Shown here piece by piece: positions 32,495 to 63,190 of a stretch of DNA of 64,000 nt. A program made the position numbers and the translations under genes. The stretch comes from Octopus sinensis (lineage: Eukaryota): positions 868,001 through 932,000 of the forward strand of contig NC_043022.1 in assembly GCF_006345805.1 (NCBI RefSeq), in the 5' to 3' direction. The first letter of the stretch is position 1; every line of letters starts with the position of its first letter. Below the pieces are notes generated by a model. The model was not told where the DNA came from. It saw only the letters and a program-made list of their open reading frames with translations, and did no database searches.

Positions 32495-33581
32495 CCCTTT
32501 CGTTACTATATTTCTGACCAAAATACACCCCTTATGTGTTTCAATTAATTTCTAACGTAATCATAAATTTAGTCTGGTTTCATTAAACAACTATAACTTT
32601 TTAATTTATCGATATATTAATCTGATTTTTGGAAGATAATTTAATGAAATATTCTCAACCAATTCTATACTATAATTTTTGTCACAAAGTGACTCTAATT
32701 GTAGGTAGATACAGGTAAATTCCACAAAATATAAAATTATTAAAATTTTGTTCAAACATCGCTATAGAAAATGGGTTATTAGCTAATATTCAGTTGGGTA
32801 TACAACAAAATTTTACGATAGAATTTGTTATTCTGGGTAACTTTCTGATACCCATAATAATATTTATGGCAAAATAGGCCTTAATTTCATTTAAGGTTGT
32901 GGGAAATAACAAGCTATCCTTTCTTTCGTTTTGTTTACGTTTAGCGTAACGGTTCGTTTTCGTCGTAATGATTTCAAATGGGCTCATTCGAAAAAGTAAA
33001 AAGAAATAGTCGAAGGCTTTACCCTTCTGGGAAAGTCTGTGGCTTGGTCCAGTTTCTTCAGAAAAATCACCGAAAGAAACAGTTTTTAAATTTTCACTCC
33101 ATTCAGGTGCCAATTCGTTTTCTTTATCGCTGTCGGAGATCTCAGATTCACTGTTTTCACTTTCGGAAAATGAAACATCAGATTCATTATCAAATACCAC
33201 ATGCTTTTTTTTTTCAGTCATGGAGTTAGATTTATGAAGGTCTTCAGTAGAAAATCCTTCGAATTCTGACTCGCTGCTTGATATAATGAAATTCGTATCC
33301 ATTTTTTGTCAGAATTACAAATTTTGAAAACACAATAGGAACAAATTTCGGAAAAAAATCTCCCAAAATTCACGGAATTAAAATTACACTTCGATTATTG
33401 TACAAAACTGTAGTTGAACTGTTTACGAAGTATAATACGTGTTTTCACGAATGTACTGAAGAGATTCGCTCTGATATTCTCATTTAAATATGAATAGGTA
33501 AATTCGGGCGGCTTTGGGCGGTTTGGTCTCATAAACCAAAATTTTTTTCGGGCGGCTTTGGGCGGTTTGGTAACGAAAGGG
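32495..33581 (-). mobile_element. Internally deleted piggyBac element
   Basis: TTAA on both sides (32491-32494, 33582-33585); TIR ccctttcgttac / gtaacgaaaggg; a duplicated subterminal ttcgggcggctttgggcggtttggt; contains a transposase N-terminal ORF. Confidence 0.92.
32790..33302 (-). pseudogene. Truncated piggyBac transposase (PGBD-like N-terminal part)
   Basis: Acidic Ser-rich N-terminus followed by GP...AFDYFFLLF...IITTKTNRYA...TTLNEIKAYFAINIIMGIRKLP, typical of piggyBac. It stops before the DDD catalytic core. Confidence 0.88.
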
Positions 33582-36596: not shown

Positions 36597-36740
36597 TTAT
36601 TCCCATTTTTTACTAACATTCAGAGATTTGAAGCAATCTTCAGCAACAACATTCTTATACCAGGTTTTTTGTGGCCGAGATCGAAACAATTCAGTCTTTC
36701 TCTGAGCCCTGCGTTCGCTCATGTGATTGATTTCTTCTCC
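36597..36740 (-). CDS. MRPL57: mL63 (MRP63) terminal coding exon
   Basis: ttttctttttag|GGA GAA GAA...TGG GAA TAA, 144 nt, encoding GEEINHMSERRAQRKTELFRSRPQKTWYKNVVAEDCFKSLNVSKKWE*. The end LNVSKKWE resembles human LNVTKKWS. The three exons total 324 nt = 107 aa + stop. Confidence 0.92.
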   Translation of the reverse strand, partial: GEEINHMSERRAQRKTELFRSRPQKTWYKNVVAEDCFKSLNVSKKWE

Positions 36741-49949: not shown

Positions 49950-51745
49950 ATTTTTACATTCTCTTTGAACTTTTTTCTGGAACTTTTAAGACTTTCTTTT
50001 TTGCACATGGCAAAAACAAACGGTGCAACTGTTTTGGAGTGGGAGGTGGTCCCACCCAAACAGTGGATTAAAGATCTTGAGAAGAGGGCGGTGGTACTAC
50101 GGACCTATTCTAGGTCATGTGGTGCCATCGCCCTCTTCGACAAGAGCGTAATAGAGAGAGAGAGTTGGCAGACTTCCTGCCAACTATAAAATTTATTTCA
50201 CCGGGGACCAAATTTGCAACGGTGTGGTTGCTGTTTTGTACCCCCGAGGAAGCTGGCAGATTTGCCAGCGAGCCCCTTCAGGGAAAAGAAATTTTGTTCC
50301 TCCCCACTTATTGTGGGAGGAAGATAAGAAGAGCTTGGGTGTGCGGGCTGCCCCGGGCACGGAGGCGGGATGGATCGAGAAGACCATCCGGCAAGGCCTG
50401 GGGGATAGCGGGCCCAGGCTATTGAGTGTGAAGATTACTGCCGCAATCGACTGGGAGGGGTCAAAGGCAACTTTGACCCTGTGGACCTCGGTGGCTGTGG
50501 GAGACCTGATGTTTCCAGATTTCCTAAAAATGGCCGGGTACAGGTACCCGGTGATACTTGAGGGACGCCCCACCCTGGCCATATCAAAAGGAACTGTCCA
50601 GGGGGCCATGGTGGGGCCCTGGAGCATGAGAAAGAGGTGCTCGCCGCCCCCTCATTGGAGAGGGAGACGGTGGAAGTCATGGAGGAAGTTGCCTCCACGA
50701 AAAGAAAAAGAAAGGTAACAATGGTTGCTCACCAAAGAATGTTCAGGCGGCGGAGGAGGGTAGCAACCCCCGCGTCTCTCAATGCAGCCCCTTGCTCCCG
50801 CAACCTCAAAAAGAAAGAGGAAAAAGAGGAGCAGAGGATGGTCGGCGGATGTTCCTGGCCCGCCAACAGAGCCGCAGGTGGGATGTGTGTAACCTGCGGA
50901 TAGGGCTCCGTCAGTGGGAAGTATGCCACTGACGGAGCAGTGTGAGGTCCCTTTCTGTGAAGGGGAGGTGTTTGTCCTCCTTTACCACAAGGGAGGGATG
51001 GTGAGTAAATTTTTGGACGGCTTGGGTGAACAAGAACGTGTGTACTCGGACTGCGCAAGTAGTCTATGGCCTCCGCAGGTGGCTGCGGAGGTAGTAACTG
51101 AATAAATTTTGTCAAGGGTCACAGTGACCTTTTTTATTTTTTTAGTTTATTTATTTTATTTTTTATTTTATCTAGTTTCAGCTTACGAGCTGTGGCCATG
51201 CTGGGGCACCGCCATTTGGTGTTGCTACATGATTTTACTTCACAAATGCTTTTTAGCAATTGCCATTTGGTGCATGAGAGAGTTCGATGCAGCTGCCCTC
51301 ATCTGCACCTCCTGCCGTGAATTTGGTTCATCTGGGACACCTGACAGGAAGAGATCCAGTTTTATTTTAAAGACATCTGCATCCACCCCATGCAGGTCTC
51401 TCAGGTTCTTTGGCAGGATATTGAAGAGCTGTGGGGCCTCTGAAGCCCAGGCTATCACAGTATCTTGTCCTATATCTTGATGGCATATTTGACAAGGAAG
51501 AATTTGCTTTCCTCTTTGCAGGCCCCGACTTGTTGATGCAGAGTTGTCTGCAGGCGGCAAGTCACTTAGCTTGGGAGACTTGACAAAGAGAATCGTTGTA
51601 AGAAACTTTGTATTCGAGGGTTTGTCGGTCGGTGGGCGCCAACATCCCTATCATTATGTTTCAGTTCATCTCATCTTGTCCATGTCCAGCCCACAAGCTT
51701 CTCTCTGTGTGCTGCCCTTGTGGAAAATTAAATGAAATAAAGAAG
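49950..51745 (+). mobile_element. Non-autonomous L1/Tx1-like retroelement: frameshifted ORF1 plus 3' end, interrupted by a CR1-like fragment
   Basis: GC-rich. From the ATG at 50007 three frames join into one gag/RRM-like protein (VVLRTYS...FCTPEEAGRF...LPTYCGRKIRRAWVCGLP/PGTEAGWI...YPVILEGRP). No RT is visible; it ends in gcccttgtggaaaattaaatgaaataaa. Confidence 0.6.
51130..51455 (-). mobile_element. 5'-truncated CR1/L2-group LINE 3' end
   Basis: PQLFNILPKNLRD...FKIKLDLFLSGVPDEP...RAAASNSL C-terminus, a short 3' UTR and an (AAAAT)n-like tail. Confidence 0.75.
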
Positions 51746-54700: not shown

Positions 54701-55617
54701 CAAAAAAATAACTTGAATTTGGCGGCGGGGTTGCGATGCGACCCACCTCACGAGTCATGTCTCATGCAACCCGCTTTTCGAGAAAGGTTACCTATGTCTA
54801 GTTTGGGGCCACAGAAAAATTAAGATTGGAGACGAGCTAGAAAAAGGTCGGAGCGAAGGGCGACGGTAAAGAATGCGCACAACACGCGGTGTTAAGGGTT
54901 CGAATTACGTGGAAAACGGATGGTGTGCGTATTCTTTACCTCTGCCATGTTGGGAACCACTGCATTTGGTAATACAGTCCTACGAGCCACTAAAAAAAGA
55001 TGTAGTCACGGCTGGAATGTCCTTCACAAAGGGTCAAACTAAAGGGTCTAACTAAAGGTTAGATACTAGGGCTGTTCTGTCAAGAATGACCTAGGAATAA
55101 ACAAAAACGAAGGAGGCCTTTATACGGTCACGCAAAATGCTAGAAACAGCAGACTACCTTCCATAATACTCTACTGTATTTCAAATAACACAAAGGAGAA
55201 TGCAGTCCTATATAACTGCCTTAATAACCCTTTCATTACCAACCTGGCTGAAACTGGCTCTGAGTACAAATGTCTTGTTTTCATAAGTTTTGAATTAAAA
55301 TCTTCCACCAAAACTTTTGTCACAATTTATGTTCCTAACACTTTCTAAATGAAAGCTGAGTTTTTTTTACTAAATTCTTCATTATATTTAAAGCAATTGA
55401 AAGAAAATTAGAGCATCTCAACAGAAATATAGTAAATGAAAGGGATAAGAAAATAAAAAGGACGGGGTAGTCATAACTGGAGCGCCTTTGATAATAGGTT
55501 TGCTTGGGTCGGGGTTAGCCAAAACAACAAGTGAAAAAATGTGTGTGAGCTGAATAATAACCAAAGTCGTTAAATGCATTATTTCAGCATTTCATTGGAA
55601 TATATTAATAAACCTAC

Positions 55618-55685
55618 CCTTTTGTCAAGTGTCCGGGAATATGTTGGAGTTTCTTGAAGAAACAAGAAACAAGCGTGAGTCTCAT
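55618..55685 (-). CDS. MRPL57: Mitochondrial ribosomal protein mL63 (MRP63/MRPL57), coding exon 1
   Basis: The reverse complement reads ATG...AAA GG|gtaggt = MRLTLVSCFFKKLQHIPGHLTKG (68 nt, phase-2 donor). This matches the mL63 N-terminal pattern MxLT..L...(I)PG...GK. Confidence 0.9.
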
Positions 55686-55918
55686 GTCGGATCGTCAGGT
55701 CGGCATTTCACGGGAGAAGAACTAGCATCTTTAGTTTCGGCAAAACAGCGGGGATTTACAAATAAAACAAAAATGATAATTTCAAAGTCTGAATAACACT
55801 AAAGTAGATTTTTGTATATTTTAAATAAGCTTTAACAATGAGACATGTTTTAAATGCTTAAATAAAACCCAAATGTGTATTGGTTAATGCGAAACTAAAG
55901 TTGTTACTTTTTTTCAAA
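55686..55918. promoter_or_regulatory. Putative bidirectional promoter and 5' UTRs shared by mL63 and mL44
   Basis: 233 bp of repeat-free DNA between two divergent ATGs; CpG-rich compared with the rest of the window. Confidence 0.75.
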
Positions 55919-56003
55919 ATGGCTTCGCATCGCATGTTTCTGTTTTGGACCCGAAATATTTCGCCTTCGCTGCTTCGATTAGCAACGACCAAGACTCAAC
56001 AGA
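55919..56003 (+). CDS. MRPL44: Mitochondrial ribosomal protein mL44, probable coding exon 1 (presequence)
   Basis: caaaATGGC start; encodes MASHRMFLFWTRNISPSLLRLATTKTQQ, which is Arg/Ser/Thr/Leu-rich with no acidic residues, as in a mitochondrial presequence. The phase-1 donor A|gtaatg is compatible with the acceptor at 61910. Confidence 0.72.
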
Positions 56004-56328
56004 GTAATGTATTCCATTCTCTACCGATTCCTATTTCTTTTACTGTTATCTTGTCAATAATATTTCTTCCATTTGAAACTCTTTATTAGCAGAGAAGTCT
56101 CTCGTCTACTCCGGCATTTCGTGACCTTGTGCTTCGATATAAACATCCTGGACTCCACCTGCTAGAAATAACAGTTAAAATCTCTCTCGAATATCAACTT
56201 GCAACATTTTTTTTTTTTTTTTAAGCGGGGAGAGCGAATTTGGATGATATAGTGTATGATAAATTGTGTCTGAAAAGACAAGATGGTCACAGATTGCTTT
56301 AATCATATTGTAAGTCAGGGAGGGTGAA

Positions 56329-56645
56329 GGCGCGTGGCTAAGTCGTTAGGGTGTTCGGATCACGATCGTAGGTCGTGAGTTCAATACCTGGCAACGTATT
56401 GTGTCTTTGAGCAAGAACACTTAATTTCACGTTGTTCCAGTTCGCTCAACTGGCAAAACTGAGTGGTACCCTGTAACTCAAAAGGGCCGGCCTTGTCACA
56501 TTCTGTGTCACACCGATTCTCCCTGAGAACTACGTTAAGGTTACACGTGTCTGTGGAATGCTCAGCCACTTGCTCGTTAATTTCACGAGCAGGCTGTACT
56601 GTTGATCGAATTGACTGGAACACTCATCGTCGTGACTGACGGAGA
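56329..56645 (+). mobile_element. tRNA-derived SINE family C (copies 34530-34850(-), 42275-42750, 63695-63975; related heads with other tails at 27895-28140, 42800-43145, 48020-48250, 61055-61390, 61415-61720, all minus)
   Basis: A/B-box head followed by gtgtc.ttgagcaag.acactt.atttcac.ttgctccagt.cactcagctg. Confidence 0.8.
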
Positions 56646-60964: not shown

Positions 60965-61910
60965 CACCAACCTTCCACTAGAATATTAACTTAGATTGTG
61001 CGTCTCCTGCAGATTTATGTATGTATGCATGTGTGTGTGTGTGTGTGTGGATATATGGGAGACCACCTTCGGTTATGAATGACTGTAAGATTGCATCTAG
61101 AAAGTTACCCTCCAAGGTACATGTCCAGGCAAGGTTGTTTATGGAAGACCAGCAGTCGCCCATGCATACCAGCCTCCTCTCTCCACACCATTGATGTTAT
61201 CCAAGGGAAAGGCAAAGGTCAATACAGCTTGACACCAGTGATGTCGCAACTCATTTCTACAGCTGAGTGAACTGGAGCAACGTGAAATAAAGTGTTTTGC
61301 TCAAGAACACAACACGCAACCTGGTCCAGGAATCGAACTCACAACCTCGCGATCGTAAGCTCGACGCTCTAACCATTGAGCCATGCACCTTCACATATAT
61401 ATATATATATATATCATGCAATCACGTAACCAACCAGGCTATCAGATGTTGTTACACATCGCTGGTCACAATGCACTTTGCATTGTTTTAGCCTTCAAAT
61501 GATGCCACCCTGCTGGCTAAGCAAGCAGGCCAACAGAAGAAAGACTGAGAGAAAGTTGCAGCGAAAGAGTACAGCAGGGATCGCCACCACCCCCTACTGG
61601 AGCCCTGCGGAGCTTTAGGTGTTTTCGCTCAATAAACACTCACAACGCCCGGTCTGAGAATCGAAACTGCGATCCTACAACCGTAAGTCCACTGCCCTAA
61701 CCACTGGGCCATTGCGCCTCCACATATATATATATATAACCCCTGAACTGGTTAACTTCTCTGTGGCTAAGTTGTCATGCCTCCTACATTTGGCCCCTTT
61801 TATCTACAAGTGTTCAACACTTTCTTTAATTAATTCTAAATCCTAAATTGTTTCTCCCTGATTTTATGTTGTTTTGTTTCATGCGTGTTTTTTTTTTTCT
61901 TTCTAAGCAG

Positions 61911-62052
61911 TTTTACCCATAATCCCCTCAAGTGTAACGATTGGCTGCCGCAGTTATAACAAGGCCTTGTACCCCTACCTCAGTGAACTGTACCGCAGAA
62001 GACTGAAAGTCGGACCTGAAAAGGAGAGACATCGCTCAGAATGGATCAACTG
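61911..62052 (+). CDS. MRPL44: mL44 coding exon 2 (gene continues beyond this exon)
   Basis: A polypyrimidine tract and aagcag acceptor precede (I)LPIIPSSVTIGCRSYNKALYPYLSELYRRRLKVGPEKERHRSEWINW, ending at the donor TG|gtgag. It resembles the mL44 N-terminal ELxxRxxxxGPxxxxxRSxxxxW(NY) motif. Confidence 0.85.
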
Positions 62053-63190
62053 GTGAGATTCTGTTACTTGGCTGTTGTTGTTTATAGAAGGGATGGGGTT
62101 GTGTAGTGGCTGCGTGGTTAACATGTTTACTTCATAGTCATAAGGTTCTGAGTTCGATCCCACAGATATTTCCTATCATGACTTTAGATCAGTGGTTCTC
62201 AACTGGGGTCCACATGGCCCTTGAATGGGGTACCATGTAAGATTTTGTTGTTAAAATTTATATGAAATAAATTGGCTATAATTCTACAATACACAAAATA
62301 TTTTTAACAATTTTTTTTATAAGGCGCAGGAGTGGCTGTGTGGTAAGTAGCTTGTTTACCAACCACATGGTTCCGGGTTCAGTCCCACTGCATGGAACCT
62401 TGGGCAAGTGTCTTCTACTATAGCCTCGGGCCAACCAAAGTGGATTTGGTAGATGGAAACTGAAAGAAGCCCGTCGTATATATTGTATATATATATGCGT
62501 GTGTGTGTTTGTGTGAGTGTGTGTCCCTAGCATCGCTTGACAACTGATGCTGGTGTGTTTATGTCCCCATCACTTAGCGGTTCGGGAAAAGAGACCGATA
62601 GAATAAGTACTGGGCTTACAAAGAATAAGTCCCGGGGTCGATTTGCTCGACTAAAGGTGGTGCTCCACCATGGACGCAATCAAATGACTGAAAAGAGTAA
62701 GAGTAAGGCAGCGAGCTGGCAGAAACGTTAGCACACTGGGCGAAGTGCTCAGCAGTATTTTGTCTGTCTATGATTTGAGTTCAAATTTTGCTGAGGTCGA
62801 CTTTGCATAGGCGTAGGTGTGGCTGTGTGGTAAGTAGCTTGCTTACCAACCACATGGTTCTGGGTTCAGTCCCACTACATGGCACCTTGGGCAAGTGTCT
62901 TCTGCTATAGCCTCAGGCCGACCAAAGCCTTGTGAGTGGATTTGGTTGACGGAAACTGAAAGAAGCCACTCCTACGCCTATGACTGCCTTTACTTCTTGA
63001 GTCCATTCTGACCTAAGCTGGTGCCACATATAAAGCACCCATTACACTCTGTAAAGTGGTTGATGTTAGGAAAGGCATCTGGCTATAGAAACTATGCCAG
63101 AATAGACAATTGGGGCCTGGTGCAGCCCTTCAGCTTGCCAGCTCCTATCAAACTGTCCAACCCATGCCTGTATGGAAAAAAAGATGTTAA

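What the first reader, a model, noticed from the sequence alone, without database searches (positions are those of the whole stretch)
55618..56003. Two mitoribosomal large-subunit genes (mL63 and mL44) head-to-head with only 233 bp between start codons
Seen: divergent ATGs at 55685(-) and 55919(+), each opening a phase-consistent spliced CDS. The spacer is free of repeats although the introns on both sides (6-10 kb) are packed with them. Known: both proteins belong to the mitochondrial large subunit, and the human orthologues are unlinked. Inference: one bidirectional promoter co-regulates two stoichiometric subunits, possibly as a linkage created by coleoid genome rearrangement. The ORF track reconstructs neither gene.
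Basis: partly seen in the sequence, partly recalled or inferred. Interest (0 to 1): 0.75.

Follow-up and report, generated by a model that had tools for sequence, protein, structure and literature searches.

The report
Back-to-back mitochondrial ribosome genes in octopus
Two octopus genes for parts of the mitochondrial ribosome (mL63 and mL44) start back to back only 233 bases apart and likely share one short promoter, an ordinary housekeeping-gene layout already known from the human MRPS11/MRPL46 pair, and whether squid-and-octopus genome reshuffling created it is untested.

Summary
The ATGs at 55685(-) and 55919(+) open spliced genes matching database mL63 (whole protein) and mL44 (first two exons) exactly. 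Both first introns appear as joints in public contigs (4 of 4 and 3 of 4 runs). In 4 of 6 spliced-type runs the two transcript contigs stop inside the spacer, about 180-215 bp apart; in 2 they cross it. Consecutive accessions suggest the same adjacency in three Octopus species. A shared promoter is likely; co-regulation was not measured. The layout is ordinary: 26 mitoribosomal gene entries stand in the human table of 1,262 head-to-head pairs, including MRPS11/MRPL46. At those rates chance gives such a pair in about 12% of genomes, 7% for two large-subunit genes. The repeat-free spacer is unremarkable. An inverted 11-bp twin beside both starts is not enriched genome-wide and appears absent in O. 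bimaculoides. A coleoid origin could not be tested. The scan's notes held no earlier report of this pair. Verdict: new member of a known kind, low interest.

The parts
36597..36740 (-). mL63 (MRPL57/MRP63) coding exon 3, with stop codon
   Evidence: 100% tblastn match to P0001 residues 61-107; spliced frame equals P0001
46465..46576 (-). mL63 coding exon 2
   Evidence: Pfam MRP-63 hit; joint 46575/55617 in 4 of 4 runs
55618..55685 (-). mL63 coding exon 1, ATG at 55685, phase-2 GT donor
55686..55725 (-). Likely mL63 5' UTR (26-40 nt or somewhat more), holding a 3-codon upstream ORF at 55706-55695
   Evidence: Transcript contigs end at 55711, 55715, 55717, 55725 in four runs of three studies; contig ends are only a weak hint of starts. 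Upstream ORF read from the sequence
55686..55918 (.). 233-bp spacer between the start codons; AT-rich core 55726-55906 (27% GC), inferred bidirectional promoter, no TATAAA
   Evidence: single copy in the genome
55729..55739 (-). First copy of an 11-bp inverted twin (CGAAACTAAAG), just upstream of the mL63 contig ends; function doubtful
   Evidence: about 3% of shuffles give an 11-bp inverted repeat; 19 of 274 window tiles have one; not enriched genome-wide
55890..55900 (+). Second copy of the 11-bp twin, just upstream of the mL44 contig start; function doubtful
   Evidence: at most 7 of 11 bases compatible with the O. bimaculoides upstream peptide
55907..55918 (+). Possible very short mL44 5' UTR beginning with C plus seven T (TCT/TOP-like)
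   Evidence: One run's mL44 contig aligns from 55907 with 29 unaligned bases before it; weak, single run; exact run not compatible with O. bimaculoides peptide
55919..56003 (+). mL44 (MRPL44) coding exon 1, ATG at 55919, phase-1 GT donor
   Evidence: joint 56003/61911 in 3 of 4 runs
61911..62053 (+). mL44 coding exon 2; the gene continues about 37 kb beyond the window end

Best explanation
This is a head-to-head pair of intact, spliced nuclear genes for the mitoribosomal large-subunit proteins mL63 and mL44, whose transcripts likely start about 180-215 bases apart and likely share one short, TATA-less bidirectional housekeeping promoter. Mechanism, step by step: (shown) two divergent first exons flank an AT-rich 181-bp core; (inferred, from contig ends) each gene initiates at its own edge of that core with a very short 5' UTR; (inferred, from what is known of head-to-head promoters) one nucleosome-depleted region loads polymerase II both ways, so the two genes tend to be on together; (inferred) the pair persists because an insertion or break in so short a region would damage two essential genes. 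That both partners are mitoribosomal is most likely a by-product of these genes very often sitting in head-to-head pairs, not a special device for stoichiometry.
For: Exact protein matches and family hits. Splice joints at both first introns. Contigs of both transcripts end within the spacer in 4 of 6 spliced-type runs, three studies, while a DNA-like run crosses it unbroken. Consecutive accessions on same-length contigs in O. sinensis, O. vulgaris and O. bimaculoides. Start-to-start distance lies at or near the commonest human class, 101-200 bp (PMC1487180, passages). 26 mitoribosomal entries in the human head-to-head table, one pair of two; chance of such a pair about 12%, or 7% for two large-subunit genes.
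Against: No cap-mapped start, chromatin data or expression correlation was available. Contigs cannot show true starts. In 2 of 6 spliced-type runs a contig crosses the entire spacer, and a third has a low-depth contig reaching 55836, so some transcripts may start further out or overlap. No run is on record as RNA. Adjacency in other species rests on accession order, not on aligned DNA. The spacer is no better conserved than the introns in the one diverged DNA-like run (6 listed differences in 233 bp against about 19 in 583 bp; little power). The chance estimate uses human, not octopus, rates.
Confidence: 0.75

Rival explanations
1. The pairing is selected for function: a shared promoter with dedicated twin elements keeps mL63 and mL44 output matched, and the linkage was created by the coleoid rearrangement and kept across squids and octopuses.
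For: Adjacency indicated in three Octopus species; both proteins are in the same ribosomal subunit; an 11-bp inverted twin lies just upstream of both inferred starts; conserved divergent pairs are more often functionally related (PMC2871058, abstract and passages).
Against: No data outside Octopus. The pair was not found by name in the supplements searched of three cephalopod or animal synteny papers, though those tables use other identifiers. The twin is not enriched (35 against 65 control sites; paired form 5 against 35) and is not fully compatible with the O. bimaculoides upstream peptide. Chance pairing is not rare.
Confidence: 0.2
2. Two independent core promoters merely abut, or the 5' ends overlap, and the genes are regulated separately; proximity is a historical accident kept because it is hard to break.
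For: Contigs crossing the spacer in 2 of 6 runs. Different start contexts on the two sides (initiator-like for mL63 with an upstream ORF, pyrimidine run for mL44; read from the sequence). Close head-to-head genes can be insulated from each other in Drosophila (PMC3483549, search listing only).
Against: About 180 bp leaves room for little more than one nucleosome-free region (inference); most contigs stop at the spacer edges.
Confidence: 0.2
3. The arrangement is an assembly or annotation artefact.
For: None found.
Against: A DNA-like run of another organism label covers 55382-56350 in one contig; the region is single copy; three species' annotations give consecutive accessions.
Confidence: 0.01

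Closest known systems
Human MRPS11/MRPL46 head-to-head pair (PMC1487180; passages and supplementary Table S1 rows read)
   Same: Two mitoribosomal protein genes on opposite strands with starts close together (65 bp in human); listed as linked in human, chicken and Fugu.
   Different: One small-subunit and one large-subunit gene there; two large-subunit genes here. Different genes, so an independent origin. Conservation here is indicated only within Octopus.
Metazoan head-to-head (divergently paired) housekeeping genes in general (PMC1487180, PMC2670823; passages read)
   Same: Opposite strands, starts under 1 kb apart, TATA-less, housekeeping function. 9.4% of human and 31.6% of Drosophila genes are so arranged; such pairs are mostly lineage-restricted.
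   Different: The octopus core is AT-rich (27% GC), not a CpG island as in mammals; no octopus base rate was found.
MRPS12/SARS2, MRPL43/PEO1, MRPL47/NDUFB5, HSPD1/HSPE1 (table rows and passages)
   Same: Head-to-head pairs of two mitochondrial-function genes.
   Different: Partners are mostly not subunits of one ribosomal subunit; promoter activity in both directions has not been tested for the octopus pair.

Membership tests
mL63 (MRPL57, Pfam PF14978) | MRP-63 domain over the curated cut-off and homology to solved mL63 chains | tested here: met
   59.7 bits against cut-off 27; family profile hits PDB mL63 chains at E 5e-27
mL44 (MRPL44) | RNase III-like domain plus dsRNA-binding domain, homology to solved mL44 chains | tested here: met
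   PF22935 158 bits, PF22892 27.6 bits; PDB mL44 E about 1e-59
Head-to-head gene pair | Adjacent genes on opposite strands, divergent, no gene between | tested here: met
Head-to-head gene pair | Both genes transcribed and spliced | tested here: met
   GT-AG joints in public contigs
Head-to-head gene pair | Transcription starts under 1 kb apart | tested here: inconclusive
   Contig ends inside the spacer in 4 of 6 runs, crossing in 2; contigs cannot show starts
Bidirectional promoter | Shared cis-elements drive both directions; correlated expression | not testable with these tools
   Needs reporter, CAGE, ATAC and expression matrices
Coleoid-specific microsynteny | Present in octopods and decapodiforms, absent in Nautilus and other molluscs | tested here: inconclusive
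   Octopus only; metagenome scans found no relatives; no name hits in supplements searched
TCT/5'-TOP initiation at mL44 | Start at a C followed by 4-15 pyrimidines | tested here: inconclusive
   One contig aligns from C55907 with seven T following; definition from PMC6954239 passages; exact run not compatible with O. bimaculoides peptide

The most novel reading that the evidence does not exclude
The coleoid genome reshuffle brought mL63 and mL44 together and a single 180-bp promoter with mirrored elements at each edge was then fixed across squids, cuttlefish and octopuses to couple two large-subunit proteins, with mL44 additionally started from a TOP-like sequence: a compact, testable case of rearrangement creating new co-regulation.
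Probability: 0.12. Interest if true: 0.5.

Novelty: new member of a known kind. Interest (0 to 1): 0.22.

Why it matters
As it stands, little: it adds an octopus example to a well-known class, and both genes are already annotated in public records. Its practical value is a 233-bp candidate two-way ubiquitous promoter for cephalopod reporter work, and a simple marker whose age can be read off from a few genomes. It would matter more if it proved coleoid-wide, absent in other molluscs and more tightly co-expressed than other mitoribosomal gene pairs.

Tried and rejected
Pfam family searches of the own genome with PF14978 and PF22892 found nothing because the exons are short; the genes were found by frames and protein searches instead. 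A single-exon PDB search gave only chance hits. Two metagenome scans for the pair in other animals found no relative. No listed sequencing run is on record as RNA. Supplement searches for the gene names gave no relevant row (in one search the one hit was the cytosolic L44 family; five files were not searched; bioRxiv supplements were closed, and source tables of the synteny papers that I could not see may bear on the age of the pair). A complex prediction of mL44 with mL63 gave no answer. The human assembly paper places mL44 in the central body module and does not name mL63 in its text (PMC11638073, passages), so module sharing stays open. The twin 11-bp element as a general octopus core-promoter motif was rejected: 35 sites against 65 control, the 28 other loci inspected show no shared promoter-like context by eye, paired form 5 against 35. 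The repeat-free spacer as evidence of constraint was rejected. The processed mL63 pseudogene is cut at its 5' end and so gives no start site. Paper searches listed no report of this pair; the library lacks most subscription journals.

Full report
Observation. The window carries CAT at 55683-55685 and ATG at 55919-55921 with 233 bp between them. On the minus strand three exons (55685-55618, 46576-46465, 36740-36597) with GT-AG introns of 9,041 and 9,724 bp translate to a 107-aa protein identical to P0001, a record held for O. sinensis and O. vulgaris with the MRP-63 domain (E 4e-16); a profile of 30 relatives hits solved mL63 chains (E 5e-27). On the plus strand exons 55919-56003 and 61911-62053 (intron 5,907 bp) equal the first 76 aa of P0007, named mL44 in O. 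sinensis; tblastn finds ten coding pieces, eight beyond the window. P0007 has both mL44 domains and matches solved mL44 chains.

Transcription. None of the 24 listed runs is on record as RNA, but spliced joints show RNA origin. The mL63 joint appears in 4 of 4 runs and the mL44 joint in 3 of 4. Of six spliced-type runs laid (X5, X10, X16, X17, X19, X20), four have mL63 contigs ending at 55711, 55715, 55717 and 55725 (three studies). The mL44 contig aligns from 55907 in X17, with 29 unaligned bases before it; in X16, X19 and X20 its start, estimated from joint side length or bin depth, is about 55922-55929. Two runs (X5, X10) have one contig crossing the whole spacer, and X16 has a low-depth contig reaching 55836. 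The DNA-like run X9 covers 55382-56350 unbroken. Contigs cannot map starts, so this is a weak but consistent hint that both main starts lie inside the spacer, about 180-215 bp apart, with some RNA or DNA across it.

Spacer anatomy. The core 55726-55906 is 27% GC and has no TATAAA. It is single copy. It has no repeat hit, while the flanking first introns are at least 30% and 65% covered; but 81 of 177 equal windows in mL63 intron 1, 9 of 114 in mL44 intron 1 and 16 of 190 in mL63 intron 2 are also free, so the absence of repeats says little. I found an 11-bp inverted twin, CGAAACTAAAG, just upstream of each inferred start. About 3% of shuffles and 19 of 274 window tiles have an 11-bp inverted repeat. 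The extended 14-mer occurs 35 times in the genome against 65 for the control, the paired form 5 times against 35, and the other sites show no common promoter-like context. An older O. bimaculoides gene model reads 22 codons into the homologous region, and that peptide allows at most 7 of the 11 bases and not the exact C-plus-seven-T run (this assumes the extension is unspliced). The twin and the TOP-like start are therefore leads of low weight. In X9 the spacer differs at 6 listed places in 233 bp against about 19 in 583 bp of intron, which shows no extra conservation at this short distance.

Conservation. This is a proxy for adjacency within one genus. I obtained mL63 records for Argonauta, bivalves, gastropods, a chiton, annelids and a brachiopod but no matching named mL44 records, so gene order there is open. 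Metagenome scans and supplement searches added nothing. The coleoid-origin idea is neither supported nor excluded; an octopod-only or an older molluscan origin seems to me about as likely.

How surprising. In the human table of 1,262 head-to-head pairs, 18 MRPL, 7 MRPS and MRP63 entries occur (searched by these symbols; mitoribosomal genes under other names were not counted); MRP63 pairs with C13orf3, MRPL44 is absent, and MRPS11/MRPL46 form a pair 65 bp apart that is also linked in chicken and Fugu (PMC1487180, passages). Random pairing at these rates gives at least one pair of two mitoribosomal genes in 12% of trials and two large-subunit genes in 7%. Head-to-head genes make up 9.4% of human and 31.6% of Drosophila genes and are mostly conserved within lineages. 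An octopus rate was not available.

Mechanism. Shown: divergent, intact, spliced genes around a short AT-rich core. Inferred: starts at the two edges, one shared open region loading polymerase II both ways, broadly parallel housekeeping expression, and persistence because the region cannot easily be broken. Not shown: shared elements, correlated expression, or a selective link to subunit stoichiometry.

Papers: PMC1487180 passages and Table S1 rows; PMC2670823, PMC2871058, PMC13652810, PMC13508932, PMC11638073, PMC6367999, PMC6954239, PMC2246290 passages only; PMC9023564, PMC13508932, PMC12407938, PMC8917759, PMC12001498 supplement searches; PMC3483549 search listing only. Nine paper searches listed no report of this pair.

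Verdict. Real, correctly identified, probably unreported as a pair, but a new member of a well-known kind. Interest 0.22.

Noticed in passing
L036:1449-2220 (G000:C2:93505448-93506220): Processed (intronless) mL63 pseudogene, 78-86% identical, with frameshifts, stops, a roughly 400-bp insertion and an A-rich tail. The tail begins about 17 bases after the stop codon, and the gene's AATAAA overlaps its stop codon, suggesting a very short 3' UTR isoform.
   Followed up: partly
window 55706-55695 (-): Three-codon upstream ORF ending 10 bases before the mL63 start codon, inside all four transcript contigs that stop in the spacer.
   Followed up: no
window 61905-61910 (+): Tandem NAGNAG acceptor at mL44 exon 2; both sites keep the frame, and the contigs use the distal CAG.
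   Followed up: yes
window about 36615 (-), protein P0006: An O. vulgaris mL63 record has a different C-terminus (112 aa), which fits use of a GT donor inside exon 3 and would lose the conserved terminal tryptophan.
   Followed up: no
window 49950-51100: GC-rich stretch in mL63 intron 1 with open frames on the + strand, one holding a zinc-knuckle-like motif by eye; possibly a retroelement ORF1 fragment. No Pfam hit.
   Followed up: partly
window 32793-33308 (-): Fragment of a transposase (Pfam DDE_Tnp_1_7, E 1.6e-7) downstream of mL63.
   Followed up: partly
protein P0037: A Helobdella gene model fuses mL63 to a Vac_ImportDeg domain, probably a merged annotation of same-strand neighbours.
   Followed up: no
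window 55907, run X17: 29 bases at the 5' end of the mL44 contig do not align to the genome even at 80% likeness; an adaptor would be the simple reading, but the letters were not shown.
   Followed up: no
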